A stretch of DNA of 64,000 nucleotides from a virus. The stretch lies in the IMG/VR virus record IMGVR_UViG_3300037587_000516, positions 1 to 64,000 of that record. The stretch is one strand, 5' to 3'. How positions within the stretch are numbered: the stretch's first letter is position 1; the number at the start of each line of letters is the position of its first letter. This document shows, one piece after another, positions 4,169 through 49,806 of this stretch. Made by a program: the position numbers and the translations under genes. A model generated the notes under the pieces. The model saw only the letters and a program-made list of their open reading frames with translations. It was not told where the DNA came from and did not search any database.

Positions 4169-4432
4169 ATGCAGACATTAAAAGTAGATAACCATTGGAG
4201 CAAGCCAGGTAATTTTACAGGTAGTGTTGAACATCCTAGTGGAAATAAGCGGTGGTTTTTGAATGGTAAAAGACATAGAGTGGATGGACCTGCTGTTGAA
4301 CATGCTGGTGGATATAAGTTGTGGTATTTGAATGGTGAGAGTATGACAGAAGAAGAGCATACTAGACGTACAGCCTATCTTAGAACTACGCTAGGCAAGC
4401 TTATTTTTAACAAAAAGACTAAAGTTATCTAA
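4169..4432 (+). CDS. HRxDGPA-repeat family copy 1
   Basis: NFTG..E...G.K.WFLNG..HRVDGPA...RTAYLRTTLGKLIF; start moved to ATG 4169. Confidence 0.85.
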   Translation: MQTLKVDNHWSKPGNFTGSVEHPSGNKRWFLNGKRHRVDGPAVEHAGGYKLWYLNGESMTEEEHTRRTAYLRTTLGKLIFNKKTKVI

Positions 4433-4446
4433 CAGGTTGCCGATAA
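4420..4446 (+). promoter_or_regulatory. sigma28-type promoter overlapping 3' end of copy 1
   Basis: TAAAGTT, N15 spacer, GCCGATAA. Confidence 0.8.
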
Positions 4447-4467
4447 GTATAATAACAGGGGGATGAT

Positions 4468-4932
4468 ATGGAAGTATTTAAAGGTTGGGCTTATACTAAG
4501 CCATATAACTTTACAGGAATTGTTGAAGAGCCAGATGGTGATAAGTCTTGGTTTTTGAATGGTGGATTACATAGAGTAGATGGGCCTGCTGTTGAATATG
4601 CTGATGGTGGTAAGACATGGTGGTTGAATGGTAGGAATGTGACAGAGGAAGCGCATACTAAAGCCTGCCTTAAGCTAGGCGAGCTAACAACTAAAGAGCC
4701 GAAAGGCGAGGGTAACACTATGAAGGTTTCTATCAAAACAATAAAGCAAAGTATATTCATCTCCGCATCTGGAGTAGAGGCAGAAATCACTCTATCATCG
4801 GTAGATAAAGTATTTGCAGACAAAGCCAGTGCTTTAATTACTAAGGTCTTAATAGATGCAGGATTGATAAGCGGCTCTTCTACCGTTAAGTCCTTTAGGG
4901 AGTTGGAAATAAAAGATAAGGGGTTAGTATGA
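4468..4932 (+). CDS. HRxDGPA-repeat family copy 2 (family C-terminus replaced by unrelated sequence)
   Basis: MEVFKGW..NFTGIVE..HRVDGPA; lacks the RTTLGKL tail. Confidence 0.75.
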   Translation: MEVFKGWAYTKPYNFTGIVEEPDGDKSWFLNGGLHRVDGPAVEYADGGKTWWLNGRNVTEEAHTKACLKLGELTTKEPKGEGNTMKVSIKTIKQSIFISASGVEAEITLSSVDKVFADKASALITKVLIDAGLISGSSTVKSFRELEIKDKGLV

Positions 4933-5111
4933 GTAAAAATTGTGAGATCGCTCATTGTGGTCAATGTCCTAACTTCGATAACCTTGGGCCAACGTACTTT
5001 GAGTCATGCAGAAAAACAGGGGCAATTGTAGATAAGGATACAACTGCCATTTATGATTCTTATCCTATACCAGATGACTGTCCGCTAGAGGATTGGAACG
5101 ATGCCGAATAA
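4929..5111 (+). CDS. Cys-rich small protein, paralogue of 2401
   Basis: CGQC...C...IPDDCPLEDW. Confidence 0.7.
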   Translation: MSKNCEIAHCGQCPNFDNLGPTYFESCRKTGAIVDKDTTAIYDSYPIPDDCPLEDWNDAE

Positions 5112-5132
5112 TAATTAACAAAGGATAGAATT

Positions 5133-5399
5133 ATGATAGAAATATTAATAGCAGTAGTAGTGACGCTTATTATAGCGGTAGTTGTTTTGTTTAATAAAGT
5201 AAAGCAAGTTAAGGTTTGTTGTGAAAATAAGTATGTCGATTTAGCTTATATAAGGCGAGTAATTGATGGTAGTTGTAATCGTTATGCCGGGGATAGGAAC
5301 ACGGGGCTGTCTCGTAAGGTTGAACGCCTAGAAGAAGAAAACAGCAAGCTTAAGGGCGTGGTAGCAGAAGTGTGCGACTATGTATACAGAGATAAGTAG
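5133..5399 (+). CDS. membrane-anchored coiled-coil protein
   Basis: N-terminal hydrophobic helix; RBS. Confidence 0.6.
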   Translation: MIEILIAVVVTLIIAVVVLFNKVKQVKVCCENKYVDLAYIRRVIDGSCNRYAGDRNTGLSRKVERLEEENSKLKGVVAEVCDYVYRDK

Positions 5400-5745
5400 A
5401 GGTAGTGTTTTGAATTATACTAAGATAGACTATCATTGGAATATGTCGAGCGGTTTCACTGGATGCACAAAGGATTCAATGGGAATCATTGCTTACTCTG
5501 TTAAGGGCAGGTTTCACCGAGAAGGTGGACCCGCCGTGATATATCCAGATGGTATAAAGAGGTGGTACCAGCATGGCGAATTACACAGACTTGACGGACC
5601 TGCAATTGAACATGAAGGACGTGAATACCGAACCGCATACTACCTTAATGGCCAATTTGTTACGGTAGAAGAGCATACTTTAAGGACAGCCTGGACTAAA
5701 ACAACACTAGGCAAATTAATTTTAAAAAAGACTAAAGTAATTTGA
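5380..5745 (+). CDS. HRxDGPA-repeat family copy 3 (divergent, two repeats; start uncertain)
   Basis: FHREGGPA, LHRLDGPA, RTAWTKTTLGKLI. Confidence 0.75.
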   Translation: MYTEISRGSVLNYTKIDYHWNMSSGFTGCTKDSMGIIAYSVKGRFHREGGPAVIYPDGIKRWYQHGELHRLDGPAIEHEGREYRTAYYLNGQFVTVEEHTLRTAWTKTTLGKLILKKTKVI

Positions 5746-5759
5746 CAAGACACCGATAA
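5733..5759 (+). promoter_or_regulatory. sigma28-type promoter overlapping 3' end of copy 3
   Basis: TAAA-N15-ACCGATAA. Confidence 0.75.
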
Positions 5760-5824
5760 GCTTAGTATGTTAGACGAAACATCTAACGATAACAAAGACA
5801 ATCATTAACTAAAGGACGTAACGC

Positions 5825-6359: not shown

Positions 6360-6416
6360 GGTATAGGTTTGGTATATAAATGCAGTAGTGGGGCTCTGAG
6401 GAGCTAGGGAGATAGT

Positions 6417-6812
6417 ATGAAAACAATTAGCTTAGATTATCATTGGAATAGGCCAGATAATTTCACAGGAATAGTTGAGGACTTTGATGGGAATAAATTT
6501 TGGTTTTTGAATGGCGAAGTACATAGACTTGACGGACCTGCTATTGAGTATGCTGATGGTACTAAGTCATGGTATTTGAAGGGAGCGTGGCATAGATTAG
6601 ATGGACCTGCTAGTGAATATGCTGATGGTAGTAAGTTTTGGTTTTTGAATGGTGAGATTATGTCAGAGGAAGCGCATTTTAAAAGAACGGCGTCTTCTAA
6701 ACAAACGGACCATGTTGTGTACTATAAAGAAATGTTATGTGTATTGACAACACCAGACAATATACTAAAAATAAAAGAAAGTCCTTGCATGTTGTACTTA
6801 GGCAAGTTATAA
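6417..6812 (+). CDS. HRxDGPA-repeat family copy 4 (two repeats, altered C-terminus)
   Basis: HRLDGPA x2. Confidence 0.8.
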   Translation: MKTISLDYHWNRPDNFTGIVEDFDGNKFWFLNGEVHRLDGPAIEYADGTKSWYLKGAWHRLDGPASEYADGSKFWFLNGEIMSEEAHFKRTASSKQTDHVVYYKEMLCVLTTPDNILKIKESPCMLYLGKL

Positions 6813-8698: not shown

Positions 8699-8968
8699 GT
8701 GAAAACAATAAAGATAAAGGACAGTGATCATATACCATATAACTTTACAGGAATTGTTGAGTTTGACGGCGGCACTGTAGTTTGGTATTTGAAGGGAGCG
8801 TGGCATAGATTAGATGGACCTGCTTTTGAATATCCTGAGGGCCGTAAGGCTTGGTATTTGAATGATGAGTATATGACAGAAGAAGAACATGCTAAAAAGA
8901 CAGCCTACCGTAGAACTACATTAGGCAAGCTTATTTTTAACAATAAATCAAATTCTATTGGGGGGTAA
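8699..8968 (+). CDS. HRxDGPA-repeat family copy 5
   Basis: family motifs; GTGA overlap with upstream stop. Confidence 0.85.
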   Translation: MKTIKIKDSDHIPYNFTGIVEFDGGTVVWYLKGAWHRLDGPAFEYPEGRKAWYLNDEYMTEEEHAKKTAYRRTTLGKLIFNNKSNSIGG

Positions 8969-15347: not shown

Positions 15348-15623
15348 ATGAGAGTGTTTAAAGGAGGTTTTGGTAATATACCAAATAAATTCACAGGAAT
15401 TGTCGAATCGCAAGGTGGGAATAAGTATTGGTTTTTGAAGGGTAAACACCATAGAGTAGGTGGGCCTGCTGTTGAGTGGTGGGACGGCACTTCGTCCTGG
15501 GGGTTGAATGGTGAATGGATAACAGAAGAAGAGCATTCTAGAAGAACTGCATGGACTAAAACAACACTGGGCAGATTGATATTAAAAGAGGATTATTTTA
15601 AACTAACGGGAGAGATTAAATGA
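15348..15623 (+). CDS. HRxDGPA-repeat family copy 6
   Basis: family motifs; ATGA overlaps at both ends. Confidence 0.85.
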   Translation: MRVFKGGFGNIPNKFTGIVESQGGNKYWFLKGKHHRVGGPAVEWWDGTSSWGLNGEWITEEEHSRRTAWTKTTLGRLILKEDYFKLTGEIK

Positions 15624-16669
15624 ATGTAGAAGAGATGAAAAAAGTCATGCCACTATTAATGAAGTCCAACATCGTTCCATTCATTTGGGGTAGATCCGGT
15701 GTTGGGAAAACAGAAGTAATTAGGCAAATAGCCAAATCGCTTGATATGGAGCTAATATACTTAACATTTGCCGCTGTAGAGGATGTTGGGGATATTATCG
15801 GATTGCCGTATGAGAAAATGGTCAACGGTGAAATGACCACTGGACACATGCCTCCGGATTGGTTTCCAACCGAAGGCAATAAGTTGATCTTTATTGATGA
15901 ATTTAACCGGGCTAAGCCACAGATACTTCAAGCCATGTTTCCATTTGTATTAGAGGGCAGACTTCATACTCACAAATTGCCTGAGAATTGCCATATTGTA
16001 GTTGCAGGTAATCCCCCAACAGAAGATTACGACGTAACTAGTATGGAGGACAATGCGCTGTTTTCTAGATTCTGCCATATGAACTTTACTCCTAGCGTTG
16101 AAGAGTGGGTTGTGTATATGAAGGAGCAAAATAGAAACCATGATGTTATCACATTCTTTAATACTAATCAGGACTTAATTTCCTCAGTAGCAAAGGACTT
16201 TGATATTAGAACGGTTTGTAAAAATGATCGGCGTAACGCTGAAATGCTGGCCAAATTTATTGATGATAATGACCCACATGATTCAGTAACTCAGTTAGTT
16301 GCATCCGGGTTGCTAGGTCCAGAGCTAGGCGTTAAATTCATGGCGCATGTGAAAAGTAATAGCGAGCGGATTAGCTCAGAAGAAATACTGAATAATTATA
16401 GTATTAGGACCAGAGATAAAGTCCGCAGAAACTTTACTAGAGTTGACATTTTAAACAAGGGTATTGAGGATGCGCTAACCACAATCAAGGCTTGTAAAGA
16501 GATACAGGAAAGTCAAGCAAGGAACATGGCAGCGTTTCTAACAGAACTGCCGAATGACCTAGCCTGGAAGGGAATTAAAGCATTCCTAGAGTTGGGCCAT
16601 GATAATTGTTTGAAGTTCATTGGTGAAAATGAGGACTTAGTTAAGAAATTTAAAGATAGAACAGCATGA
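15620..16669 (+). CDS. MoxR-like AAA+ ATPase
   Basis: Walker A GRSGVGKT, Walker B IFIDEFNRA, AGN sensor, ALFSRF. Confidence 0.85.
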   Translation: MNVEEMKKVMPLLMKSNIVPFIWGRSGVGKTEVIRQIAKSLDMELIYLTFAAVEDVGDIIGLPYEKMVNGEMTTGHMPPDWFPTEGNKLIFIDEFNRAKPQILQAMFPFVLEGRLHTHKLPENCHIVVAGNPPTEDYDVTSMEDNALFSRFCHMNFTPSVEEWVVYMKEQNRNHDVITFFNTNQDLISSVAKDFDIRTVCKNDRRNAEMLAKFIDDNDPHDSVTQLVASGLLGPELGVKFMAHVKSNSERISSEEILNNYSIRTRDKVRRNFTRVDILNKGIEDALTTIKACKEIQESQARNMAAFLTELPNDLAWKGIKAFLELGHDNCLKFIGENEDLVKKFKDRTA

Positions 16670-16929
16670 AGGTGTTTAAAGGGTGGTTTGGTGATAGACC
16701 GGATAATTTTACAGGGATTGTTGAAAATCCGGATGGTGCTAAGCGTTGGTGCTTGAATGGTGAATGGCATAGAGTTGATGGACCTGCTGTTGAACATGCT
16801 GATGGTGATAAGTATTGGTATTTGAATGGTGAGTTTTTGACAGAAATAGAGCACACTAAAAGAACTGCTTATTTAAGAACTACCTTGGGCAAGATTATTT
16901 TTAATGAGCATTTTAAATTGGAGGGGTAA
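16666..16929 (+). CDS. HRxDGPA-repeat family copy 7
   Basis: family motifs; ATGA / TAATG overlaps. Confidence 0.85.
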   Translation: MKVFKGWFGDRPDNFTGIVENPDGAKRWCLNGEWHRVDGPAVEHADGDKYWYLNGEFLTEIEHTKRTAYLRTTLGKIIFNEHFKLEG

Positions 16930-17448: not shown

Positions 17449-18540
17449 TTGATTGAGAATCATGAGTATTATGCGAACTTGTTATATCAAGCTAGGATTG
17501 AATATTCAAGTAGCATCGACAAAGCCGGGATTTGTTTTAAGAACAACCAAATTTACATGATCATTAATCCTGAGTTTTGGAAAAGTATTAGTATAAAGCA
17601 CAAAGTTGGCGTTCTAATGCATGAGTTGGATCATATTATAATGGGACACCTTCTTCGTGGACATGATATGGACATAGCTCATAAGCATATGAATATTGCG
17701 GCAGATTTGGCAATTAACCAACACAATAGGTATCTTCAAGATATGGCTAACATTTTGATACTTGACAAATTTAATGAGAAGTATAAGGTTGATATGGAGC
17801 CCAACAGAGAAATGGAGTATTACGCTAGAAAGTTGTTAGATGATGATGTAGTTAAGTATGTTTCATCTGAGGAACTAGCTGATATGATGTCTGGTGACCA
17901 CAGTATGTGGAATGACTCTGACATAGACGAAGATACTAAAAAGCAGATAATGGTAAACGCCTTAGAGGAGGCCGCAAATTCAACCCAGTCCGGAAATATT
18001 CCCGGCGAGGCATTGACCACCATTAATAAGCACAAAAAGCCATACTATAACTGGAAAAGAGTGTTGGCAAAGTTTATCGCTAGAACGCAGAACAATACTA
18101 CTAAAGTAACTCGGAATAGAAGAAACCGCAGATTTGCATTGACCCAGCCGGGTAAAAGACAGGAAGTTAAGATGCATATAGTATGTTGCATTGATACCAG
18201 TGGCTCAGTATCAGATGATATGCTAGGTAGAATTGGCACAGAGCTATGTGGTATGGTTGATAAAAGAATTCGGGTTACTATTATAGAGGCAGACCACGAT
18301 ATACAAAGAGTGTATGAGATGGATAGGAAGGGCATACAGAGCTTTAAAGGTAGAGGCGGGACCGCATATACCCCAGCCATTAAAAAGGCTGAGGAGCTAA
18401 AGCCAGACGCTATTTTGTACTTCACAGATGGCGACAGGGCAGATGTGCCAGATAAAGTTGGCGTTCCTTTTTTATGGGTGTTGACTACGGAGCAAGACAA
18501 GCCGGGTAATTTTGGTAAAGTATTACGGATTCCGGCGTGA
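17449..18540 (+). CDS. HEXXH metallopeptidase + VWA domain protein (DUF2201-like, MoxR partner); start uncertain
   Basis: HELDH, NIAADLAIN, DTSGS MIDAS, GRGGT, YFTDG. Confidence 0.85.
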   Translation: MIENHEYYANLLYQARIEYSSSIDKAGICFKNNQIYMIINPEFWKSISIKHKVGVLMHELDHIIMGHLLRGHDMDIAHKHMNIAADLAINQHNRYLQDMANILILDKFNEKYKVDMEPNREMEYYARKLLDDDVVKYVSSEELADMMSGDHSMWNDSDIDEDTKKQIMVNALEEAANSTQSGNIPGEALTTINKHKKPYYNWKRVLAKFIARTQNNTTKVTRNRRNRRFALTQPGKRQEVKMHIVCCIDTSGSVSDDMLGRIGTELCGMVDKRIRVTIIEADHDIQRVYEMDRKGIQSFKGRGGTAYTPAIKKAEELKPDAILYFTDGDRADVPDKVGVPFLWVLTTEQDKPGNFGKVLRIPA

Positions 18541-18872
18541 AGGTGTTTAAAGGGTGGTTTCATGATAGACCAGATAATTTTACGGGGATTGTCGAGTCTG
18601 AGAATGGTGATAAGGCTTGGTATTTGAATGGCAAAAGGCATAGAGTGGACGGACCTGCTGAGGAATGGTCAGATGGTACTAAGTTTTGGTTTTTGGATGG
18701 TGAGAGCCATAGAGTTGACGGACCTGCTGTTGAATTTGCTAGTGGTAATAAGCATTGGTGTTTGAATGGTGTGCGTATGTTAGAGGAAGAGCACACTAAA
18801 AAGACAGCCTACCTTAGAACTACATTAGGTAAACTAATATTTAGTGAGCATTTTAAATTGGATGAGTCATGA
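18537..18872 (+). CDS. HRxDGPA-repeat family copy 8 (two repeats)
   Basis: family motifs; first of a tandem triplet. Confidence 0.85.
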   Translation: MKVFKGWFHDRPDNFTGIVESENGDKAWYLNGKRHRVDGPAEEWSDGTKFWFLDGESHRVDGPAVEFASGNKHWCLNGVRMLEEEHTKKTAYLRTTLGKLIFSEHFKLDES

Positions 18873-19135
18873 AAGTATTTAAAGGGTGGTCTTATGGAAG
18901 GCCAAGTAATTTCACAGGAATTGTTGAAAATAATAATGGAGACAAGTATTGGTATTTGAAGGGCATGTTACATAGAGTTGACGGACCTGCTGAGGAATGG
19001 GCTGGTGGTAGTAAGCAGTGGTGGTTGAATGGTGAGTATATGACAGAAGAAAAGCACACTAAAAGAACTGCTTATTTAAGGACTACGCTAGGCAAACTAA
19101 TATTTAACGAGCATTTTAAATTGGAGGAAGTGTGA
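18869..19135 (+). CDS. HRxDGPA-repeat family copy 9
   Basis: family motifs. Confidence 0.85.
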   Translation: MKVFKGWSYGRPSNFTGIVENNNGDKYWYLKGMLHRVDGPAEEWAGGSKQWWLNGEYMTEEKHTKRTAYLRTTLGKLIFNEHFKLEEV

Positions 19136-19404
19136 CTATATTTAAAGGGTGGTTTGGTAGTCAACCATATAACTTTACGGGAATTGTAGAAGCCCCACGT
19201 GGTGATAAGTTTTGGCTTTTGAATGGCGAATCTCATAGAGTTGATGGACCTTCTAGTGAGTGGGCTGATGGTCATAAGACTTGGTATTTGAATGGTGAAT
19301 ATATGTCAGAAGAAGAGCATTATAAAAAGACAGCTTACCTTAGGACTACTTTGGGCAAACTAATATTTAATGAGCATTTTAAATTGGAGAGAGACAGTGG
19401 CTAA
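19132..19404 (+). CDS. HRxDGPA-repeat family copy 10
   Basis: family motifs. Confidence 0.85.
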   Translation: MTIFKGWFGSQPYNFTGIVEAPRGDKFWLLNGESHRVDGPSSEWADGHKTWYLNGEYMSEEEHYKKTAYLRTTLGKLIFNEHFKLERDSG

Positions 19405-22418: not shown

Positions 22419-22685
22419 GTGAAAGTGTTTAAAGGGTGGTTTGGTGACGAACCAGATAATTTCACAGGAATTGTTGAAAATCCAAATGGACATAAGTATT
22501 GGTTTTTGAATGGTAAAAGGCATAGAGTTGATGGACCTGCTATTGAGTGGTCAGATGGTAGAAGTTGGTCGTGGTGGTTGAATGGTGAGTATATGACAGA
22601 AGAAAAGCACACTAAAAGAACAGCGTGGTGTAGAACTACATTAGGTAAGTTGATATTGAATGAGCATTTTAAATTGGAAGATTAA
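22419..22685 (+). CDS. HRxDGPA-repeat family copy 11
   Basis: family motifs; GTG start 1 nt after upstream stop. Confidence 0.85.
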   Translation: MKVFKGWFGDEPDNFTGIVENPNGHKYWFLNGKRHRVDGPAIEWSDGRSWSWWLNGEYMTEEKHTKRTAWCRTTLGKLILNEHFKLED

Positions 22686-24629: not shown

Positions 24630-24633
24630 CTAT

Positions 24634-31018: not shown

Positions 31019-32140
31019 ATGAGACTATCACACAGCGCCATTCAAAAGTACTTAACGTGCGCCGCTCAATATGATGCCCACTATAATCTTAAGATCCGCT
31101 CTGAGAAGTTAGGAAGTCCTTTGTTGTTTGGAACTGCTGTGGATGAAGCCCAAGGCATTATGCTGCTTAGTAAGATGGATGATGCCGATTTAACGGACGA
31201 AGAACGGGCAACTATGGACAGAGATCCGTTTGACGTATTTGATTACCACTTAACAATGAAGGTAATTAAGCAAGATATTGGACCAGAGGATATAAGAACC
31301 TCTCCATATATTGAGTATTTTGGAAGTGATTTTGAGCCCGGGGTTCTTTTAGAAGAAGACTGGGTTAAATTAGAGCAGTTCATAAAAAATGCCGGGTACG
31401 AGGCAGATGATCCGGAAGAGTTGTTTACAATACTAAAAGGTAAGATTAAAGAAGGAGACGCATCATTAACAGATCAGTGTTATTTTAACTATGCATCGTG
31501 GTTATCGTTGAGAAGAAAAGGGCACTTAATGCTTGAGTTGTACCGCGATAAGATCATGCCGTTGATTGACAGGGTTTATAGTATTCAAAGGAAGGTTGAT
31601 TTGCCAAACGAAAATGGCGATGAGATCATTGGGTATATTGATATTGAGGCATCTTTAGTTGGACATGAGGGTATTTTCACAATTGATAATAAAACTTCTG
31701 GGCCAAAGTATAAGCAGAGTGATATAAATGACAAGGGTCAATTAGTATTATACGATGAGTTTACCCAGAATGGTCAAGCTGCATATATAGTGCTACTGAA
31801 AAAGCCCAAGTTAATTAAACACAAAACCTGCTTGTCTTGTGAGGGTACTACTACTAGATCAGTTAAAAAGTGCGCGGCAGAGGTAGAAGGAGTTCGTTGT
31901 AATGGCGAATTCTCCAATGAAATCGAGATAGAGCCCGAAATGCAGTATCAGATTTTAACTGGTGACATAGATGAAGAAAAAAAAGATTTGCTATTTGAAC
32001 AGATTGATGATATACTAAGTAAAATTGAAGCGAAAGAGTTTCCTCAGAATAGAGATGCTTGTTTTCAGTTTGGAAAACCTTGCGCATATTTTAACTACTG
32101 TAGAAATGGTAGTATGGAAGGTTTGGGGAAAGTAAAATGA
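31019..32140 (+). CDS. PD-(D/E)XK exonuclease (RecB/Cas4-like)
   Basis: LSHSAI..Y..C, GYID, IDNKTS, QL.LY, C-terminal C..C...C cluster. Confidence 0.85.
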   Translation: MRLSHSAIQKYLTCAAQYDAHYNLKIRSEKLGSPLLFGTAVDEAQGIMLLSKMDDADLTDEERATMDRDPFDVFDYHLTMKVIKQDIGPEDIRTSPYIEYFGSDFEPGVLLEEDWVKLEQFIKNAGYEADDPEELFTILKGKIKEGDASLTDQCYFNYASWLSLRRKGHLMLELYRDKIMPLIDRVYSIQRKVDLPNENGDEIIGYIDIEASLVGHEGIFTIDNKTSGPKYKQSDINDKGQLVLYDEFTQNGQAAYIVLLKKPKLIKHKTCLSCEGTTTRSVKKCAAEVEGVRCNGEFSNEIEIEPEMQYQILTGDIDEEKKDLLFEQIDDILSKIEAKEFPQNRDACFQFGKPCAYFNYCRNGSMEGLGKVK

Positions 32141-32481
32141 AGGTGTTTAAAGGGTGGTGTAAGGATAGACCACATAAATTCACGGGAATTGTTGAAACTC
32201 CAGGTGGCACTAAGTATTGGTATTTGAATGGTGAATTTCATAGAGTTGACGGACCTGCTATTGAATATTCTAAGGGTGGTAAGTCTTGGTATTTGAATGG
32301 AGAAAGACATAGAGTTGACGGGCCTGCTATTGATTGGACAGATGGAAGTAAGTCTTGGTTTTTGAATGGTGAGTATATGACAGAGGAAGAGCATGCTAAA
32401 AGAACAGCTTATCTTAGGACTACTCTTGGTAAGTTGATATTTAATGAGCATTTTAAACTGGAGGAAAACAGTGTCAACTAA
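32137..32481 (+). CDS. HRxDGPA-repeat family copy 15 (two repeats)
   Basis: family motifs. Confidence 0.85.
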   Translation: MKVFKGWCKDRPHKFTGIVETPGGTKYWYLNGEFHRVDGPAIEYSKGGKSWYLNGERHRVDGPAIDWTDGSKSWFLNGEYMTEEEHAKRTAYLRTTLGKLIFNEHFKLEENSVN

Positions 32482-38503: not shown

Positions 38504-38954
38504 ATGATAACGATCCGTGGATTAATTAGTGCGGCGGCTCTTGTTTCGGTGGGGATGATGCTGAACGAGGTAATAACGTACTCAACTACACCAACCATAA
38601 CAGAGCAGATACTGGTCCCATACAAACAGGCGTTTATGGACATGGTAAAGCACACTGGTATGCACCTTGATCTTAACACAATCAAGTTTGAATCACTACC
38701 CAACAATACTATAGGAATCTGTAACCCATTGATGTTGGAGATTAAAATAGACCCCGTATACTGGAGCACAGCGGACGAGAAAGAGAGAATTGCCGTAACT
38801 TTTCATGAGTTCAACCACTGTATTTGTTTGGATCTTGTTCATGCTGAAGGTGAGTTTGAGGACTAGTATTATGAACACTGTATTGCCAGATAGTGCATGT
38901 TTGGGTGAGCATTGGGCAGAGTATATGGCGGACTTGATAAAAAGGTGTGAATAA
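38504..38954 (+). pseudogene. metzincin-like Zn metalloprotease, frameshifted near 38864
   Basis: HEFNHCICLDLVH then TAG 38864-66; +1 frame continues TSIMNTVLPD...RCE to TAA 38952-54, which overlaps the next ATG. Confidence 0.6.
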
Positions 38955-39220
38955 TGAAAACTATTAAAGTGAACAACTATTTTAATGTCCCAATTAAATT
39001 TACTGGTATTGCTGATTTTGACAGCGGCACTTTAGTTTGGTTTTTGGATGGAAGGAGACATAGAGTTGATGGACCTGCTGTTGAATATGCTGATGGCATT
39101 AAGGTTTGGTGGTTGAATGGTGAGTTTGTGTCAGAAGAAGAACATGCTAAAAGAACTGCTTATCTTAGGACTACTCTTGGTAAGTTGATATTCAATGAGC
39201 ATTTTAAATTGGAGGAATAG
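38954..39220 (+). CDS. HRxDGPA-repeat family copy 16
   Basis: family motifs; its GGAGG serves as the polymerase RBS. Confidence 0.85.
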   Translation: MKTIKVNNYFNVPIKFTGIADFDSGTLVWFLDGRRHRVDGPAVEYADGIKVWWLNGEFVSEEEHAKRTAYLRTTLGKLIFNEHFKLEE

Positions 39221-41801: not shown

Positions 41802-42140
41802 ATGAAAACAATAAAAGTGGACGACAATTGGCATAAGCCAGATAAATTCACAGGAATTGCTGAATATCCTAATGGCGATGAGTATTGGTATTTGAATGGT
41901 AAATATCATAGAGTCGACGGACCTGCTATTGAATATGCTGGTGGTGGTAAGTATTGGTATTTGAATGGTAAAATGCATAGAGTTGGCGGACCTGCTGAGG
42001 AATGGTCAGATGGTAGTGAGTTTTGGTTTTTGAATGGTGAGATGCTAACAGAAGAAGAGCATGATAAAAGAACAGCCTATTTAAGAACTACATTAGGCAA
42101 ACTAATATTCAATGAGCATTTTAAGTTGGAGGACTCGTGA
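41802..42140 (+). CDS. HRxDGPA-repeat family copy 17 (two repeats)
   Basis: family motifs; downstream of TTTACA-N17-TACATT 41755-41783. Confidence 0.85.
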   Translation: MKTIKVDDNWHKPDKFTGIAEYPNGDEYWYLNGKYHRVDGPAIEYAGGGKYWYLNGKMHRVGGPAEEWSDGSEFWFLNGEMLTEEEHDKRTAYLRTTLGKLIFNEHFKLEDS

Positions 42141-42406
42141 GAGTATTTAAAGGGTGGTTTGGTGACGAACCAGATAATTTCACCGGAATTGTTGAGTCTG
42201 AGAATGGGGACAGGGCTTGGTGTTTGAATGGTGAATGTCATAGAGTTGACGGACCTGCTATTGAGTGGGGTGATAGTGGAAGTTGGTCGTGGTATTTGAA
42301 TGGTGTGATGATAACAGAGGAAGAGCACACTAAAAAGACAGCGGGGTATAGAACTACCTTGGGAAAATTGATTTTTAATGAGCATTTTAAATTGGAGGAG
42401 AAATGA
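42137..42406 (+). CDS. HRxDGPA-repeat family copy 18
   Basis: family motifs. Confidence 0.85.
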   Translation: MRVFKGWFGDEPDNFTGIVESENGDRAWCLNGECHRVDGPAIEWGDSGSWSWYLNGVMITEEEHTKKTAGYRTTLGKLIFNEHFKLEEK

Positions 42407-42756
42407 AGGTATTTAAAGGGTGGTTTGGAGATCAACCAGATAACTTTACTGGGATTGTTGAAACTCCGCGTGGTAATAAGTATTGGTATTTAAATGGTGA
42501 GAGACATAGAGTGGGTGGACCTGCTAGTGAATATCCTGGTGGCAGTAAGCGGTGGTATTTGAATGGACTAAGACATAGAGTTGACGGACCTGCTAGTGAA
42601 TGGGCTGATGGCACTGAGATTTGGTATTTGAATGATGTAGAAATGACAGAAGATGAGCACACTAAAAGGACCGCTTGCTATAGAACTACCTTGGGTAGAT
42701 TAATACTAAAAAAAGAAGGGCATTTTAAACTACAAACTGAGGAGGAATCAGTATGA
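42403..42756 (+). CDS. HRxDGPA-repeat family copy 19 (two repeats)
   Basis: family motifs. Confidence 0.85.
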   Translation: MKVFKGWFGDQPDNFTGIVETPRGNKYWYLNGERHRVGGPASEYPGGSKRWYLNGLRHRVDGPASEWADGTEIWYLNDVEMTEDEHTKRTACYRTTLGRLILKKEGHFKLQTEEESV

Positions 42757-46185: not shown

Positions 46186-46470
46186 ATGAAAACAATAAAG
46201 CTAGAGTCAGTTTGGAGTGGGCCAGATAATTACACCGGAATTGTTGAAAATCCATATGGTGATAAGGTTTGGTTTTTGAATGGTCTAAGACATAGAGTTG
46301 ATGGACCTGCTTGTGTGTGGGATGATGGAGATGAGTGGTGGTATTTGACTGATGAGTATATGACAGAGGAAGAGCACAGTAAAAGAACTGCTTACTTAAG
46401 AACCACACTAGGCAGACTTATACTAAAAGAACACTTTACATTAGGAGATGAAAATGCAAGTAAAGATTAA
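46186..46470 (+). CDS. HRxDGPA-repeat family copy 20
   Basis: family motifs. Confidence 0.85.
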   Translation: MKTIKLESVWSGPDNYTGIVENPYGDKVWFLNGLRHRVDGPACVWDDGDEWWYLTDEYMTEEEHSKRTAYLRTTLGRLILKEHFTLGDENASKD

Positions 46471-46876
46471 GCGTCTGCACCCAGACGCGAAAATACCCCA
46501 AAAAGCCCACCAAGGGGATGCTGGATTTGATCTAGTAGCTGTCACAAAAGAACTAACCCCACAAGGTTATATTGAAATGAAAACCGGCCTTGGCTTCGAG
46601 ATCCCTCCGGGCCACATGGGGTTGCTGTTTCCAAGGTCTAGTATATCAAATACTAAAATGACCTTGACCAATTCTGTCGGTGTACTTGATGAGAATTTTA
46701 GAGGAGATGTTAGCTTTAGATTTAAGCCCGCAACTTCTGGAAAAGGTGGGTATGAAATAGGAGACAAAATAGGCCAACTAGTAATCATGCCTTATCCTAG
46801 TATTGAGTTAGTTGAAGTTGATGAGCTAGATGAAACTGATCGTGGAACTGGTTCCTATGGGTCGTCTGGAAAATGA
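46448..46876 (+). CDS. dut: trimeric dUTPase
   Basis: AGFDL, PRSS, GVLDENFRG, IGQL, RGTGSYGSSG. Confidence 0.92.
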   Translation: MKMQVKIKRLHPDAKIPQKAHQGDAGFDLVAVTKELTPQGYIEMKTGLGFEIPPGHMGLLFPRSSISNTKMTLTNSVGVLDENFRGDVSFRFKPATSGKGGYEIGDKIGQLVIMPYPSIELVEVDELDETDRGTGSYGSSGK

Positions 46877-47142
46877 AAACAATTAAAGTAAAGTATTGGC
46901 TTGATAGACCTTGTAATTTCACGGGGATTGTTGAATGTTATAATGGAGATAATATTTGGCTTTTGAATGGTAAAAGGCACAGAGTAGACGGACCTGCTAG
47001 TGAATGTGCCGGTGGTGATAAGTATTGGTTTTTGAATGGTGTTCGTATGACAGAAGAAGAGCATTATAAAAGGACAGCGTGGACTAGGACTACATTAGGT
47101 AAATTGATATTCAATGAGCATTTCACATTAGACGGAGAGTAG
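46873..47142 (+). CDS. HRxDGPA-repeat family copy 21
   Basis: family motifs. Confidence 0.85.
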   Translation: MKTIKVKYWLDRPCNFTGIVECYNGDNIWLLNGKRHRVDGPASECAGGDKYWFLNGVRMTEEEHYKRTAWTRTTLGKLIFNEHFTLDGE

Positions 47143-47590: not shown

Positions 47591-47857
47591 ATGAAGGTGT
47601 TTAAAGGGTGGACTTGGAATATGCCAAATAATTTCACTGGCATTGTTGAAAACAATAGTGGTAATAAGCATTGGTATTTGAATGGTGAGAAGCATAGAGT
47701 TGACGGACCTGCTATTGAATATGTTGGCGGAGTTAAGGCCTGGTTTTTGAATGGTGAGCGTGTGACAGAGGAAGAGCATTATAAAAAGACAGCTTATCTT
47801 AGGACTACTCTTGGTAAGTTGATATTTAATGAGCATTTTAAACTGGAGGAAGCGTGA
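47591..47857 (+). CDS. HRxDGPA-repeat family copy 22
   Basis: family motifs; ATGA / GTGA overlaps. Confidence 0.85.
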   Translation: MKVFKGWTWNMPNNFTGIVENNSGNKHWYLNGEKHRVDGPAIEYVGGVKAWFLNGERVTEEEHYKKTAYLRTTLGKLIFNEHFKLEEA

Positions 47858-48297
47858 AAGACGAAGAGCTTAATCCAAAATTAAAGTCGTTTGTGGTGAA
47901 TTTGCTTCGTGCCGGAACGTTTAAATGGAAGGCAAGAAATACGGCAAAGAAGAGATACAAAGCCCAGAATGGTTTCTTTAAGAACGGCAACCCTAAGTAT
48001 GGATATTACTGTGCTAAGTGCAAGGACGTATTTAAGTCCGGAGAAGTTCAAATGGACCACCTCCACGCTGTTGTTAGCCCACTTCATGGATTTGTTGGGC
48101 TAAATACCTACGCTAATCGTATGTATTGTGACGAATGGGGGTATATATGCTTGTGTCCAGGGTGCCACAGTACCAAGACAAAAATTGAATTAGAGTTTCG
48201 CACAGCATTTCGGGCACTTAGAGCAGCTGGAGCATCAGATCCAGAGCTAGAAGCAGAATATTACAGATTTTTAAAAGAATATGAAGAAAAGACTTGA
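47854..48297 (+). CDS. HNH endonuclease
   Basis: CAKC...QMDH...LCPGCHSTKT. Confidence 0.8.
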   Translation: MKDEELNPKLKSFVVNLLRAGTFKWKARNTAKKRYKAQNGFFKNGNPKYGYYCAKCKDVFKSGEVQMDHLHAVVSPLHGFVGLNTYANRMYCDEWGYICLCPGCHSTKTKIELEFRTAFRALRAAGASDPELEAEYYRFLKEYEEKT

Positions 48298-48322
48298 CAA
48301 TAACAACAAACTATAGTATGAT
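48294..48322 (+). promoter_or_regulatory. sigma70 promoter
   Basis: TTGACA-N17-TATGAT. Confidence 0.75.
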
Positions 48323-48349
48323 TAAATAATCAATGAAAGGAAAAAAGAT

Positions 48350-48712
48350 ATGTCAGGAGTAGGAAATTCGGGAGAAAGGAATGAAGCAATTGCTAGTGGA
48401 GTAATTGCCGCAGATGTTGCAACCGCAAGTGATGCAATTCAACTTCAACCCCAAGCCCACAATAAGTTTTTAGTAATGCAGGTTTCATCAAGAACCGACG
48501 GAACATTTATCCCTAAAGTTCAACATTCTGTTGATGGATCAGTATGGGAAGATTTAGTGGCTGGAACAGGACTAAGTGCAAACGGAATGGAAAGTATTCC
48601 GTTTCCGATTACTGGTAATTTGCCATATGTTCGTGCGGTAGTTACGTCATCAGTAACAACAACTGGAGCAACAATCGCGGCTTTCTTTGTTCACGCTAAC
48701 CCAATTAGATAA
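48350..48712 (+). CDS. hypothetical beta-rich protein
   Basis: RBS; VQHSVDG..W.D and YVRAVVT beta-sandwich-like pattern. Confidence 0.55.
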   Translation: MSGVGNSGERNEAIASGVIAADVATASDAIQLQPQAHNKFLVMQVSSRTDGTFIPKVQHSVDGSVWEDLVAGTGLSANGMESIPFPITGNLPYVRAVVTSSVTTTGATIAAFFVHANPIR

Positions 48713-48724
48713 TCAGGAGAATTA

Positions 48725-49546
48725 ATGAAAATACTATTATTTTTACTAGCGTTTATTCCGGGAATGGCGTTAGCCACCGGACCAGAACTAATTACACTAA
48801 CTGCTGAAAATACAATATCGCTTAGGGACTCAGTAAATTGGTCTAGTATATCACAACTACAATACCAACTATTACAAAAAGCGGCTAGGCTAGACGATGA
48901 CGAGCCAATTTATTTAGTATTAGACACACCAGGCGGATCTGTTTCTGCCGGTGAAATGTTTATTGAAACACTAAAAGGAGTAAAACAACCAGTCCACACT
49001 ATAGTTATATTTGCAGCATCAATGGGATTTCAGATTACCCAATCAACTGACTTCCGTCACATTCTATCAAGCGGCACATTAATGTCACATAGAGCAACCG
49101 TTGGTATTAACGGACAAATAGATGGTGAATTAGAATCTAGGTTGTCCTATTATAAAAAAGCAGTTGGTGAAATGGAAGTTAGATCGGCTAAGCGTGTTGG
49201 GATGAGCATTGTTGATTACAAAGCCAAGATTTTAAATGAATGGTGGGAAGTAGGAAAAAATGCTGTTACAAACAAGATGGCAGACAGCGTAGTTGCTGTT
49301 AAGTGCAGTGATGATTTGGTTAAGCGGGTGGTTTCTAGGAGAATTAAGTCTCTCTTTGGCAGTCGTCTTGTTATGTTTTCTGCTTGCCCATTAATCACAA
49401 CTCCAATTGCTAAAGCAAAACGAAGTCACAATAACAAACTCAATAATACCAACAATGCCCAAATGGACCTATACATGGATCGGCTGTTTTTTAATAAGCG
49501 CAGCTTTTTGAATAATTACATTAATACCGGAATGTTTAATCAGTAA
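48725..49546 (+). CDS. ClpP/SppA-like serine protease with signal peptide
   Basis: DTPGGSV, FAASMG (Ser nucleophile), LMSH; N-terminal MKILLFLLAFIPGMALA. Confidence 0.8.
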   Translation: MKILLFLLAFIPGMALATGPELITLTAENTISLRDSVNWSSISQLQYQLLQKAARLDDDEPIYLVLDTPGGSVSAGEMFIETLKGVKQPVHTIVIFAASMGFQITQSTDFRHILSSGTLMSHRATVGINGQIDGELESRLSYYKKAVGEMEVRSAKRVGMSIVDYKAKILNEWWEVGKNAVTNKMADSVVAVKCSDDLVKRVVSRRIKSLFGSRLVMFSACPLITTPIAKAKRSHNNKLNNTNNAQMDLYMDRLFFNKRSFLNNYINTGMFNQ

Positions 49547-49806
49547 TGGAAGTGTTTAAAGGGTGGCTTGTAGATAGACCAGATAAATTCACTGGGATTG
49601 TCGAAAGACCAGATGGTGATAAGTTTTGGTGTTTGAATGGTGGGTGGCATAGAGTGGATGGACCTGCTATTGAATGGTTCGATGGTGCTACGTATTGGTT
49701 TTTGAATGGTGTGTATATGACAGAAGAAGAGCATTATAAAAGAACAGCTTATCTTAGAACTACATTAGGTAAGCTAATATTTAAGGAACAATCGAAATTA
49801 ATATGA
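49546..49806 (+). CDS. HRxDGPA-repeat family copy 23
   Basis: family motifs; TAATG / ATGA overlaps. Confidence 0.85.
   Translation: MEVFKGWLVDRPDKFTGIVERPDGDKFWCLNGGWHRVDGPAIEWFDGATYWFLNGVYMTEEEHYKRTAYLRTTLGKLIFKEQSKLI

What the first reader, a model, noticed from the sequence alone, without database searches (positions are those of the whole stretch)
4169..49806. 23 dispersed copies of one small HRxDGPA-repeat gene behaving like translationally neutral insertion cassettes
Seen: 23 paralogues (~7 kb by my tally), all on the + strand and none in the virion module. They have a fixed architecture: N-cap (14 MKVFKGW-type, 9 MKTIK-type), NFTGIVE, one or two 23-aa HRxDGPA units, and usually an RTTLGKLIFNEHFKLE tail. 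Most starts overlap or abut the upstream stop (ATGA/GTGA/TAATG at 8699, 15348, 16666, 18537, 27697, 28103, 32137, 38954, 46186, 46873, 47591, 49546). The conserved 3' end (TTTTAAATTGGAGG) supplies the Shine-Dalgarno of the next gene, e.g. polA. Copies split normally adjacent partners (MoxR/VWA, exonuclease/ERF) and form tandem triplets at 18537 and 41802. No transposase, terminal inverted repeat or target duplication was visible. Inference: either a selfish minimal element spreading by recombination into gene junctions, or a selected, diversified repertoire of binding proteins (MORN/YwqK-like beta-hairpin repeats) such as anti-defence decoys expressed across all early/middle operons.
Basis: partly seen in the sequence, partly recalled or inferred. 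Interest (0 to 1): 0.88.

Follow-up and report, generated by a model that had tools for sequence, protein, structure and literature searches.

The report
Phage's 26-copy hairpin-repeat gene family
An uncultured 87-kb marine-sediment phage spends about 9% of its DNA on 26 diverged copies of one small hairpin-repeat protein, slotted between its early and replication genes at places where its nearest known relative has nothing; they are most likely a panel of binding proteins with unknown targets.

Summary
A profile built from the copies finds exactly 23 genes in the window (E 3e-35 to 1.5e-64; next hit 0.43). It finds 26 in the complete 87,126-bp phage genome. All 26 are intact and on the + strand, and none lies in the virion block.

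The "insertion cassette" reading is partly supported:
- 0 of 15 related phage records carry the family.
- The nearest relative keeps the same replication-gene order with empty junctions where this phage has 9 copies.
- The copies are old. Median identity is 59% at the protein level and the closest pair is 84% identical in DNA. Median dN/dS is 0.34.
- There are no end repeats and no enzyme domain.
- Tight start/stop overlaps are the genome's general habit (33/46 junctions with a copy against 39/70 without, p=0.12).
- The tail does carry the next gene's ribosome-binding site in 15 of 26 copies.
- Three pairs show gene-conversion tracts.
- Variable residues alternate with a fixed Trp/Leu/Gly/His scaffold.

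Best reading: a lineage-specific, selected expansion of HRxDGPA hairpin-repeat binders. All 10 unrelated IMG/VR phage records that I checked for copy number also hold several copies. This scan has reported the same kind on at least five other genomes. New here are the dispersal into core operon junctions, the private C-terminal tail and the empty-site evidence. Function is inferred, not shown.

The parts
4169..4432 (+). family copy, MKTIK-type cap (MQTLKV), 1 unit, tail NKKTKVI
   Evidence: HMM E 3.9e-47 on the ORF from 4097. Sequence. 35 nt before the next copy.
4468..4932 (+). family copy, MEVFKGW cap, 1 unit, followed by an unrelated C-terminal extension of about 85 aa
   Evidence: HMM E 3e-35. 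Profile match 4465-4698 only. ATGA overlap with the next gene.
5380..5745 (+). most diverged copy, 2 degenerate units, tail KKTKVI; start uncertain
   Evidence: HMM E 8e-39. Longest branch in the tree, 1.48.
6417..6812 (+). family copy, MKTIS cap, 2 units, tail interrupted after KRTA and ending LYLGKL
   Evidence: HMM E 2.8e-56. Sequence.
8699..8968 (+). family copy, MKTIK type, 1 unit
   Evidence: HMM E 4.3e-43. GTGA overlap upstream, 2-nt gap downstream.
15348..15623 (+). family copy, MRVFKGG cap, 1 unit, directly before the MoxR-like AAA gene
   Evidence: HMM E 8.3e-38. ATGA overlap on both sides. Neighbour identified.
16666..16929 (+). family copy between the MoxR-like AAA gene and an HNH endonuclease gene
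   Evidence: HMM E 6.5e-49. ATGA upstream, TAATG downstream, GGAGG before the next start.
18537..18872 (+). first copy of tandem triplet 1, 2 units, directly after the VWA (DUF2201) gene
   Evidence: HMM E 2.2e-61. GTGA and ATGA overlaps. Same sequence as database cluster P0003.
18869..19135 (+). second copy of tandem triplet 1, 1 unit
   Evidence: HMM E 2e-48. 51-nt identical tract with copy 22419, global p=0.002.
19132..19404 (+). third copy of tandem triplet 1, 1 unit
   Evidence: HMM E 9.5e-47. 69-nt identical tract with copy 29310; no permutation reached it (0 of 1000).
22419..22685 (+). family copy, last gene before a strong promoter-like site at 22688 and the RNR gene
   Evidence: HMM E 5.2e-49 on the ORF from 22407. 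Promoter-like site.
27697..27966 (+). family copy, MKTII cap, 1 unit
   Evidence: HMM E 1.8e-46. GTGA and ATGA overlaps.
28103..28372 (+). family copy, MKVFKGW type; unit reads HKVDGHA
   Evidence: HMM E 1.3e-44. Sister of 16666 in the tree, support 95/85.
29310..29645 (+). family copy, 2 units, first gene after a promoter-like site at 29275
   Evidence: HMM E 1.5e-64. GTGA overlap downstream with GGAGG. Promoter-like site.
32137..32481 (+). family copy, 2 units, between the PD-(D/E)XK exonuclease gene and the 99-aa gene before ERF; this site is empty in relative G001
   Evidence: HMM E 4.8e-64. In G001 the exonuclease gene ends at 3288 and the next gene starts at 3290.
38954..39220 (+). family copy abutting polA; its GGAGG lies before the polA start
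   Evidence: HMM E 3.8e-45. Letters. In G001 the upstream gene overlaps polA directly.
41802..42140 (+). first copy of tandem triplet 2, MKTIK type, 2 units, after polA; this site is empty in G001
   Evidence: HMM E 4e-62 on the ORF from 41796. In G001 polA ends at 12581 and the next homologous gene starts at 12613.
42137..42406 (+). second copy of tandem triplet 2, MRVFKGW cap
   Evidence: HMM E 1.3e-45. GTGA and ATGA overlaps.
42403..42756 (+). third copy of tandem triplet 2, 2 units
   Evidence: HMM E 3.5e-58. Sister of 15348 in the tree, support 96/85.
46186..46470 (+). family copy directly before the dUTPase gene
   Evidence: HMM E 9.6e-47. ATGA upstream, 17-nt overlap with dut. In G001 dut is flanked by non-family ORFs.
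46873..47142 (+). family copy directly after the dUTPase gene
   Evidence: HMM E 1.6e-46. ATGA upstream, abuts the next gene.
47591..47857 (+). family copy used for the structure model
   Evidence: HMM E 1e-48. AF2 pLDDT 89.5. 63-nt identical tract with copy 32137.
49546..49806 (+). family copy between the ClpP-like gene and the next gene; this site is empty in G001
   Evidence: HMM E 7.1e-47. In G001 ClpP (18443-19312) overlaps the next gene (19309-19734).

Best explanation
What it is. These genes are a lineage-specific expansion of one small protein. The protein has an N-terminal cap, then one or two 23-residue HRxDGPA beta-hairpin units plus a half unit, then a helical tail that I found complete only in this phage. 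The repeat belongs to a very large, uncharacterised class that Pfam covers only in part, as DUF6745.

How it arose (inferred). An ancestor of this phage gained the gene. It then multiplied by duplication and recombination into 21 separate places, all at gene boundaries of the early, nucleotide-metabolism and replication operons. Copies that survived are those that left their neighbours' translation intact. The copy's start overlaps the upstream stop (RTGA). Its last codons (K-L-E-E, read TTGGAGGA) provide the Shine-Dalgarno and coupled start for the next gene.

What has happened since. The copies have diverged for a long time under purifying selection on a fixed Trp/Leu/Gly/His scaffold and on the tail. 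A set of strand and loop positions has become hypervariable. Occasional gene conversion moves tracts between distant copies.

Likely function (inferred, not shown). The proteins form a panel of binding proteins made together with the early and middle genes. Each has its own recognition face, and all share a common tail. Host take-over or counter-defence is the likeliest use; the targets are unknown.
For: Shown:
- 26 intact paralogues and no relics.
- The family is absent from 15 of 15 related phage records, 10 of them at least 90% complete. The positive control gave 33 matches in the phage's own genome. My own HMM on six frames of G001, G002 and G004 gave no hit better than E 0.39.
- Gene order is the same in G000 31.0-50.7 kb and G001 2.2-20.3 kb, at 31-60% protein identity. 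The junctions after the exonuclease gene, before and after polA, on both sides of dut and after ClpP are empty there.
- Pairwise protein identity has a median of 0.59. DNA identity has a median of 0.69 and a maximum of 0.84. Median dS is 0.90 and median dN/dS is 0.34, over 325 pairs of which 13 are saturated.
- TTLGKL in the tail is invariant in protein, yet its codons are as diverse as genome usage predicts. That indicates old, protein-level selection.
- Hypervariable positions are 8-11, 13, 21-23, 27, 34, 45, 48, 50 and 57. They alternate with the invariant W28, L30, W51 and L53 in the modelled strands. piN exceeds piS at least threefold at positions 8, 27, 42, 48, 49, 57 and 64.
- The tree is star-like: 2 of 23 inner branches are well supported, and sister copies lie far apart in the genome.
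- Three gene-conversion tracts are significant genome-wide.
- The tail codons are TTG in 13 of 16 copies (genome use 17%) and GAG in 12 of 14 (genome use 39%). The Shine-Dalgarno for the next gene lies inside the copy in 15 of 26.
- The AF2 model is confident (pLDDT 89.5) and shows hairpins followed by two helices.
- The same design recurs in another phage: a constant cap, a variable number of units and a constant lineage-specific tail in a tandem array. Multi-copy families were found in 10 of 10 other IMG/VR records that I checked for copy number.
Against: - No binding, expression or phenotype data exist. Function is inferred from the variation pattern and from the fold class.
- The nearest relative is distant (core proteins 31-72% identical). 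Loss in the relatives cannot be formally excluded, and the timing of gain is unresolved.
- Per-site piN/piS rests on single codons and ignores recombination, so positive selection is not demonstrated.
- Synonymous sites in the repeat core are far more uniform than codon usage predicts. This could reflect DNA-level constraint or concerted evolution rather than protein selection alone.
- 11 of 26 copies do not supply the next gene's Shine-Dalgarno.
- Tight junctions are not enriched at copies (p=0.12).
- My gene calls are home-made.
Confidence: 0.6

Rival explanations
1. Selfish ORF-only cassette. The unit from RTGA to RTGA spreads by microhomology-mediated or illegitimate recombination into start/stop overlaps. 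It persists because it is non-polar, and it gives the phage no benefit.
For: - Junctions are filled here and empty in the relative.
- The family is absent from 15 of 15 relatives.
- The copies are ORF-precise, with no conserved flanks.
- RTGA stands at the upstream edge of 14 of 26 copies and at the downstream edge of 13 of 26.
- An HNH endonuclease gene lies next to copy 16666.
Against: - No near-identical copies; the highest DNA identity is 84%.
- 26 of 26 copies are intact and there are no fragments.
- Median dN/dS is 0.34, with strict protein conservation over saturated synonymous sites in the tail.
- No nuclease, recombinase or transposase domain in Pfam, PHROGs or NCBIfam.
- No terminal inverted repeats or target duplications above control.
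- RTGA overlaps are the genome's general junction style.
Confidence: 0.15
2. Portable homology for module exchange. The repeated genes mainly act as dispersed recombination linkers that let co-infecting relatives swap the gene blocks between them, as proposed for repeated regulatory cassettes in T4-type phages (comparison recalled, from no call).
For: - Copies flank functional blocks such as MoxR, HNH+VWA, polA and dut.
- All copies point the same way.
- Exact tracts of 69, 63 and 51 nt are shared by distant copies, and the conversion signal is significant.
Against: - Median DNA identity is only 69%, which is poor substrate for homologous recombination.
- Protein-level constraint is evident.
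- No relative with the family exists to exchange with.
Confidence: 0.1
3. Adaptor repertoire. The constant tail docks every copy onto one common machine while the variable face picks substrates. The machine could be the phage's own ClpP-like protease, one of its AAA+ proteins, or a host complex.
For: - A constant tail under strong protein-level selection beside a variable hairpin face.
- The phage encodes ClpP-like, MoxR-like and BCS1-like AAA proteins.
- Another phage's array also has its own constant tail.
Against: No interaction evidence of any kind. The tail may simply be the C-terminal cap of the fold, inherited by all copies.
Confidence: 0.08
4. Assembly artefact: repeats wrongly multiplied or misplaced by the assembler.
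For: The genome is a metagenome assembly. Logan contigs of the one run that holds it break inside copies.
Against: - Copies differ by at least 16% in DNA, so they cannot be collapsed or duplicated reads.
- A 5,665-bp Logan contig matches 42154-47818 with 0 differences. It spans most of copy 42137, three whole copies and most of a fifth. The run is probably the source sample, so this is a different assembler and not independent DNA.
Confidence: 0.02

Closest known systems
HRxDGPA 23-residue hairpin-repeat proteins, partly covered by Pfam DUF6745 (PF20530); expanded families in other uncultured phages
   Same: - The repeat unit is the same (W-x-L-N-G-x-x-H-R-x-D-G-P-A).
- The profile of this family hits 24,689 cluster representatives at E<=0.001.
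- Outside proteins share the M-x-T-I-K...P-x-x-F-T-G-I-V-E cap.
- 10 of 10 other IMG/VR records that I checked for copy number carry 6 to 121 matches.
- One of them has a tandem array with a constant cap, a variable number of units and a constant tail.
- Atlas look-alikes are small viral hypothetical proteins.
   Different: - The copies here have only one or two units, and the 6 copies scanned stay below DUF6745's cut-off (best 17.7 of 27 bits).
- The full tail ...YLRTTLGKLIFNEHFKLEE was found in no other record (IMG/VR: 1 partial locus; JGI metagenomes: 4 partial loci; protein search: the only full-length matches are this genome's own proteins).
- The copies are dispersed over 21 places inside core operons rather than mostly clustered.
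- The genome is mid-sized (87 kb).
MORN repeat proteins (MORN1, junctophilin, SET7/9 N-terminal domain)
   Same: Repeated beta-hairpins of about 23 residues with a conserved Gly and aromatic pattern. MORN1 (6t69, 6t4d, 6t68), SET7/9 (1h3i) and junctophilin-2 (7rxe) are among the top Foldseek rows.
   Different: - All those rows are weak (E 0.9-2.8; TM 0.18-0.34). The best VIA-align Z is 3.4.
- No Pfam MORN or MORN_2 match at E<=1 in 6 copies.
- The HRxDGPA signature and the helical tail are not MORN features.
Mycobacteriophage mobile elements (MPME1/2)
   Same: Very small single-ORF units found at different sites in phage genomes, recognised by filled-versus-empty comparison with relatives. 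[quoted passage not shown]
   Different: MPMEs have inverted-repeat ends, add 6 bp at insertion, are identical between phages and can land inside genes (same passages). The copies here have no end repeats, are at most 84% alike, and sit only at gene boundaries.
Expanded repeat-protein gene families of large viruses (ankyrin, MORN, F-box or BTB families of giant viruses; poxvirus gene 'accordions')
   Same: Lineage-specific multiplication and diversification of a repeat-scaffold binding protein. The parallel is recalled, from no call. A Pandoravirus paper (10.1101/500207) that mentions MORN repeats appeared in a search listing only; I did not read it.
   Different: Those families sit mostly in tandem arrays or at genome ends as independent genes. 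Here the copies are threaded into translationally coupled operons of a tailed phage.
Morons and free-standing homing endonuclease genes of phages
   Same: Extra genes lying between conserved neighbours that are adjacent in relatives (recalled, from no call).
   Different: Morons carry their own promoter and terminator. Homing genes encode a nuclease. Most copies here have neither: 18 of 26 start within 1 nt of the upstream stop, and no nuclease domain was found.

Membership tests
HRxDGPA hairpin-repeat proteins (Pfam DUF6745 in part) | Tandem 23-residue units with W-x-L-N-G-x-x-H-R-x-D-G-P-A | tested here: met
   24 exact H[RK]x[DN]GPA motifs in the window, all in + strand frames. Alignment. 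The profile hits 24,689 representatives, mostly through profile positions 19-70.
HRxDGPA hairpin-repeat proteins (Pfam DUF6745 in part) | Score at or above Pfam's gathering cut-off for PF20530 (27 bits) | tested here: not met
   5 of 6 copies scanned give 12.9-17.7 bits and one gives no DUF6745 row. 4 of 9 long multi-unit relatives pass (27.7-47.4 bits), through the repeat part of the model only.
MORN repeat (PF02493) / MORN_2 (PF07661) | Sequence match to the Pfam repeat models | tested here: not met
   No MORN row at E<=1 for 6 copies. MORN_2 scores 17 bits (cut-off 29.6) in 1 of 9 long relatives.
MORN repeat (PF02493) / MORN_2 (PF07661) | Fold match to solved MORN structures | tested here: inconclusive
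   The top Foldseek row is 6t69 MORN1 at E 0.92, TM 0.24. The best VIA-align Z is 3.4, rmsd 3.8 over 50 residues.
Transposable element / MPME-like mobile element | Terminal inverted repeats | tested here: not met
   The longest exact inverted repeat at the copy ends averages 6.3 nt (max 9), against a control mean of 5.6 (max 11).
Transposable element / MPME-like mobile element | Target-site duplication or added bases at the insertion | tested here: not met
   Flanking direct repeats average 4.35 nt against 4.03 in controls. The only recurrent shared letters are the RTGA start/stop overlaps that the whole genome uses.
Transposable element / MPME-like mobile element | Near-identical copies (recent movement) | tested here: not met
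   Highest pairwise DNA identity 0.84, median 0.69, over 325 pairs.
Transposable element / MPME-like mobile element | Encoded transposase, recombinase or nuclease | tested here: not met
   No such domain in Pfam, PHROGs or NCBIfam. The model shows hairpins plus two helices.
Transposable element / MPME-like mobile element | Filled versus empty sites among relatives | tested here: met
   Sites are empty in G001 after the exonuclease gene, before and after polA, around dut and after ClpP. This holds only at deep divergence; no close relative was available.
Virus multigene 'accordion' family | Lineage-specific rise in copy number | tested here: met
   26 genes here against 0 in 15 related records.
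Virus multigene 'accordion' family | Copies in tandem arrays | tested here: inconclusive
   Two triplets and one adjacent pair; the other 18 copies stand alone, giving 21 places in all.
Virus multigene 'accordion' family | Diversifying selection on a subset of sites | tested here: inconclusive
   15 positions have entropy of 2.5 bits or more. piN exceeds piS at least threefold at 7 positions. No recombination-aware codon model was run.

The most novel reading that the evidence does not exclude
The family is a phage-encoded substrate-receptor repertoire. The 26 variable hairpin faces would each seize a different host (or defence) protein. The strictly conserved private tail would dock all of them onto one common machine, for instance the phage's own ClpP-like protease or one of its AAA+ proteins. 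The genes would be kept in step with every early and middle operon by translational coupling through a ribosome-binding site written into their own last codons. This would be a bacterial-virus counterpart of the expanded F-box/BTB/ankyrin adaptor families of large eukaryotic viruses.
Probability: 0.07. Interest if true: 0.85.

Novelty: new variant of a known kind. Interest (0 to 1): 0.6.

Why it matters
A tailed phage of ordinary size gives a tenth of its genome to one diversified small-protein family, threaded through its essential operons. That implies strong, sustained selection for many related but distinct binders. It points to a large class of phage-host interactions about which nothing is known.

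My searches found no paper naming the motif or DUF6745. The repeat is nevertheless found in 24,689 protein clusters and is multi-copy in every other phage record that I checked for copy number.

This genome is a compact and tractable case:
- The proteins are short (86-154 aa) and the model is confident.
- Scaffold and variable positions are clearly separated.
- A relative with empty sites defines exactly what was added.
- The tail-encoded ribosome-binding site shows how genes can be added inside coupled operons without polarity.

Tried and rejected
- Database names. PHROGs gave 0 families for 4 copies. NCBIfam gave nothing above noise for 2 copies and 3 relatives. PADLOC gave 0 for 5 copies. 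Megablast of the helicase-polA stretch against 50,697 phage records gave no match.
- tblastn of a copy against phage records found only repeat-level matches, in Celeribacter phage P12053L, Agrobacterium phage Atu_ph07 and one uncultured phage. P12053L gp09 is annotated as hypothetical.
- Relatives through the replication genes. polA gave only two loci at 48% identity, and the VWA gene gave none. No relative holds MoxR or VWA homologues, so the claim that the copy "splits MoxR/VWA" could not be tested against kin.
- Relatives through the tail motif. IMG/VR gave 1 partial locus and JGI metagenomes gave 4 partial loci. No closer kin was found, so recent mobility is untested.
- Homodimer test (complex prediction): no verdict (score 0.00, mark 0.42). 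This is no evidence either way.
- Fold searches. Foldseek against the PDB gave no row at E<=0.001. VIA-align wide gave no row at Z>=5.
- Reads. Only one run holds the DNA, a marine sediment metagenome that is probably the source, and it is kept as contigs. Laying it showed no contig that joins across a copy. The one listed joint and the loose ends fall at tracts shared between copies. Stretches without cover prove nothing.
- Literature. There were 0 papers for HREDGPA, HRVDGPA, HRxDGPA, 'DGPA repeat' or DUF6745. Searches for MORN repeat + bacteriophage + paralogous, for phage multigene family terms and for phage gene-family expansion terms gave nothing on this. Supplementary files were not consulted.
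- The idea that TTTAAA near both ends of the MKVFKGW-type copies is an end repeat was rejected. The MKTIK-type copies lack it at the 5' end, and inverted-repeat lengths do not exceed controls.
- Promoter and terminator scans did not exceed shuffles overall: 72 promoter-like sites against 59.7±6.9, and 40 against 46.9±6.2. They were used only to place copies 22419 and 29310 relative to strong sites.

Full report
**1. What is there**

I built an HMM from the 20 window ORFs that contain H[RK]x[DN]GPA and ran it on all 346 ORFs of 40 aa or more. It returns 23 genes with E between 3e-35 and 1.5e-64, and the next hit has E 0.43. The window is the first 64 kb of a complete 87,126-bp virus record with direct terminal repeats. 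The whole genome holds 26 such genes. The extra three lie at 79704-79988, 80852-81121 and 81725-81997.

All 26 are on the + strand and have open frames. A six-frame scan at domain E<=1 finds no broken relic on either strand, and none lies in the minus-strand virion block. The copies total 6,978 nt in the window and 7,806 nt, or 9.0%, of the genome.

- 14 window copies have the MKVFKGW-type cap and 9 the MKTIK-type.
- The cap ends in P-x-x-F-T-G-I-V-E.
- 16 window copies have one HRxDGPA unit and 7 have two.
- The tail is T-E-E-E-H-x-K-R-T-A-Y-L-R-T-T-L-G-K-L-I-F-N-E-H-F-K-L-E.

Odd members are 4468 (an unrelated extension of about 85 aa), 6417 (an interrupted tail), and 5380 and 4169 (tail ...KKTKVI).

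**2. Junctions**

I made rough gene calls myself, using codon log-odds plus a Shine-Dalgarno score. With them, 18 of 26 copies start within 1 nt of the upstream stop, mostly as ATGA or GTGA. 19 of 26 end within 1 nt of, or overlapping, the next start.

This is not a special property of the copies. 33 of 46 junctions that involve a copy are tight, against 39 of 70 junctions between other + strand genes (Fisher p=0.12).

The phage uses Shine-Dalgarno sites generally. GGAG, GAGG or AGGA stands 4-17 nt upstream of 62 of 95 other + strand genes and 27 of 36 minus-strand genes, against 10% of random windows.

The tail claim holds. In 15 of 26 copies (13 of 23 in the window) a GGAG or GAGG inside the copy's last codons lies 5-18 nt before a next-gene start that overlaps or abuts the copy. 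The tail's Leu codon is TTG in 13 of 16 copies (genome use 17%), and the following Glu codon is GAG in 12 of 14 (genome use 39%).

**3. Relatives and empty sites**

A 694-aa virion-module protein finds 80 related IMG/VR loci at 47-71% identity. I searched the 15 longest records, 10 of them at least 90% complete, with the family profile. 0 of 15 have a match at E<=0.001. The same search on the phage's own genome gives 33 matches.

I fetched three records whole. My HMM on their six frames gives nothing better than E 0.39.

The nearest relative, G001, is a 61.8-kb fragment judged 71% complete. Its gene order matches this phage from the exonuclease gene to the genes after ClpP, at 31-60% protein identity. 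The junctions compare as follows:

| Site | G001 (relative) | This phage |
|---|---|---|
| After exonuclease | exo ends 3288, next gene starts 3290 | copy 32137-32481 lies between them |
| Before polA | upstream gene (9227-9703) overlaps polA (9690-) | copy 38954-39220 abuts polA |
| After polA | polA ends 12581, homologue of 42753-42938 starts 12613 | three copies, 41802-42756 |
| Around dut | dut overlapped on both sides by non-family ORFs | flanked by copies 46186 and 46873 |
| After ClpP | ClpP (to 19312) overlaps next gene (19309-) | copy 49546-49806 lies between them |

At the exonuclease site the relative writes the downstream gene's AAAGGAGA into the exonuclease's last codons. Here the same job is done by the copy's CTGGAGGAA.

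So 9 copies at 7 places in this syntenic stretch are additions, unless they were precisely lost in the relative. With 0 of 15 relatives carrying the family, gain in this lineage is the economical reading. The divergence is deep and no closer relative was found. Nothing can therefore be said about recent movement.

**4. Age, selection and exchange**

Over 325 pairs, DNA identity has a median of 0.69 (range 0.52-0.84). Protein identity has a median of 0.59. Median dS is 0.90, with 13 pairs saturated, and median dN/dS is 0.34.

The tree is star-like. 2 of 23 inner branches are well supported and the median tip length is 0.36. The two cap types fall on either side of one branch (84/89). The supported sister pairs are far apart in the genome (15348 with 42403; 16666 with 28103). 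Tandem neighbours are not sisters.

A GENECONV-style permutation of the 211 polymorphic columns finds three pairs with runs longer than almost any permutation over all pairs:
- 19132/29310: 57 sites, reached in 0 of 1000 permutations (69 nt identical).
- 32137/47591: 50 sites, reached in 0 of 1000 (63 nt identical).
- 18869/22419: 42 sites, p=0.002 (51 nt identical).

Codon-level conservation is uneven. The HRVDGPA and WxLNG codons are far more uniform than genome usage predicts. TTLGKL in the tail is invariant in protein, yet its codon diversity matches expectation. The second observation shows long-standing selection on the protein. The first is unexplained; concerted evolution or DNA-level constraint could account for it.

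**5. Structure and variable sites**

AF2 with a 43-row alignment gives pLDDT 89.5. The model shows strands 3-5, 17-20, 26-30, 49-53 and 56-58, then helices 60-71 and 73-83. Confidence falls in the last 18 residues.

The invariant positions are T16, G17, W28, G32, H35, G39, G47, H63 and A68. Positions with entropy of 2.5 bits or more are 8-11, 13, 21-23, 27, 34, 45, 48, 50 and 57. In the strands they alternate with the fixed W/L positions, which suggests one variable face. This is inferred from the alternation; I had no coordinates. piN exceeds piS at least threefold at positions 8, 27, 42, 48, 49, 57 and 64. These are single-codon estimates that ignore recombination.

**6. What family**

No copy reaches any Pfam cut-off. 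DUF6745 scores 12.9-17.7 bits against a cut-off of 27. PHROGs, NCBIfam and PADLOC give nothing.

The family profile hits 24,689 cluster representatives at E<=0.001, mostly long multi-unit proteins matched through profile positions 19-70. 4 of 9 of these pass DUF6745 through its repeat part. Some outside proteins are chains of whole modules (cap, units, short helix) in one ORF: P0084, P0140, P0179 and P0203. Others are small proteins with the same MxTIK...FTGIVE cap but different tails. The MKTIK cap is therefore the older form, and the MKVFKGW cap is a derived clade of this phage.

The first tail helix (TEEEHKRRTA) also occurs outside. The extension YLRTTLGKLIFNEHFKLEE was found nowhere else.

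Fold searches put MORN1, SET7/9 and junctophilin at the top, but weakly (E 0.9-2.8; best Z 3.4). "MORN-like" is a resemblance, not a membership.

**7. How unusual**

All 10 other records that I checked for copy number hold several matches: 121, 56, 36, 26, 26, 23, 19, 13, 7 and 6. Matches are not gene counts.

One 211-kb record has seven genes in tandem at 4-5-nt spacing. Each has the same cap (MSKPICKT) and the same tail (...EKLLFNSEVMV), with 117-255 aa between them. The design of constant cap, variable units and lineage-specific constant tail therefore recurs.

Earlier notes of this scan describe the same kind of family on at least five other genomes, all large phages. I did not examine those genomes. 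My literature searches found no paper on the motif or on DUF6745.

What is particular here:
- The genome is mid-sized.
- The proteins have only one or two units.
- The copies are dispersed to 21 places inside translationally coupled core operons.
- The tail is private to this phage.
- Empty sites are directly demonstrated in a syntenic relative.

**8. Verdict**

The "translationally neutral cassette" description is a fair account of the outcome: additions at junctions that keep coupling. The evidence favours an old, selected, diversifying family over a currently active selfish element.

Function as binders is inferred, and the targets are unknown. An assembly artefact is very unlikely. The copies differ by at least 16% in DNA. 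A 5,665-bp contig from a second assembler matches the stretch 42154-47818, which holds three whole copies and parts of two more, with no difference, though probably from the same sample.

Noticed in passing
window 16929-17414 and 24595-25116: Two free-standing HNH endonuclease genes. One (NUMOD4 + HNH_3) lies between the MoxR-like AAA gene and the VWA (DUF2201) gene, right after copy 16666. The other (HNH_3 + AP2) overlaps the end of the ribonucleotide reductase gene. The first has a 39% homologue elsewhere in relative G001.
   Followed up: partly
window 4400-4460 and 5715-5775: The two copies with the odd tail ...KKTKVI (4169 and 5380) are each followed within a few bases by GCCGATAA or ACCGATAA. 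If so, the -35 part would lie in the copy's last codons. I did not test this.
   Followed up: no
window 2190-6840: Many early genes share an almost fixed ribosome-binding stretch, G-rich followed by ATAGT or TTAGT and then ATG. Examples stand before 2197, 2401, 2841, 3037, 3392, 4169, 6417 and 6835.
   Followed up: no
window 6417-6812: Copy 6417 has its tail interrupted after KRTA by about 34 unrelated residues, and the frame ends ...LYLGKL, which resembles the usual TTLGKL. This may be an insertion into, or a rearrangement of, the tail.
   Followed up: no
window 15620-18540, 25966-27279, 48725-49546: The phage encodes a MoxR-like AAA protein with a DUF2201 VWA-like/metallopeptidase partner, a BCS1-like AAA protein and a ClpP-like protease. 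That is an unusual load of protein-remodelling genes for an 87-kb phage.
   Followed up: no
G001 (IMG/VR record behind L012) 9690-10130: The relative's polA reading frame is 963 aa against 839 aa here. It has about 147 extra N-terminal residues with no counterpart in this phage.
   Followed up: no
G016 (IMG/VR record behind L120), 128,541 bases: This record has 121 profile matches to the repeat family, in dense runs of 105-170-aa frames, several with single in-frame stops. CheckV rates it only 28% complete. It may be the most extreme expansion among the records I looked at.
   Followed up: no
window 12550-12650 equivalent in G001 (12581-12625): In the relative, the empty site after polA holds a TTGACA...TATAAT-like promoter, followed by AATTGGAGGAA before the next start. 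This resembles the AAATTGGAGGAA of the copies' tails, so the tail imitates a ribosome-binding context that these phages use anyway.
   Followed up: partly
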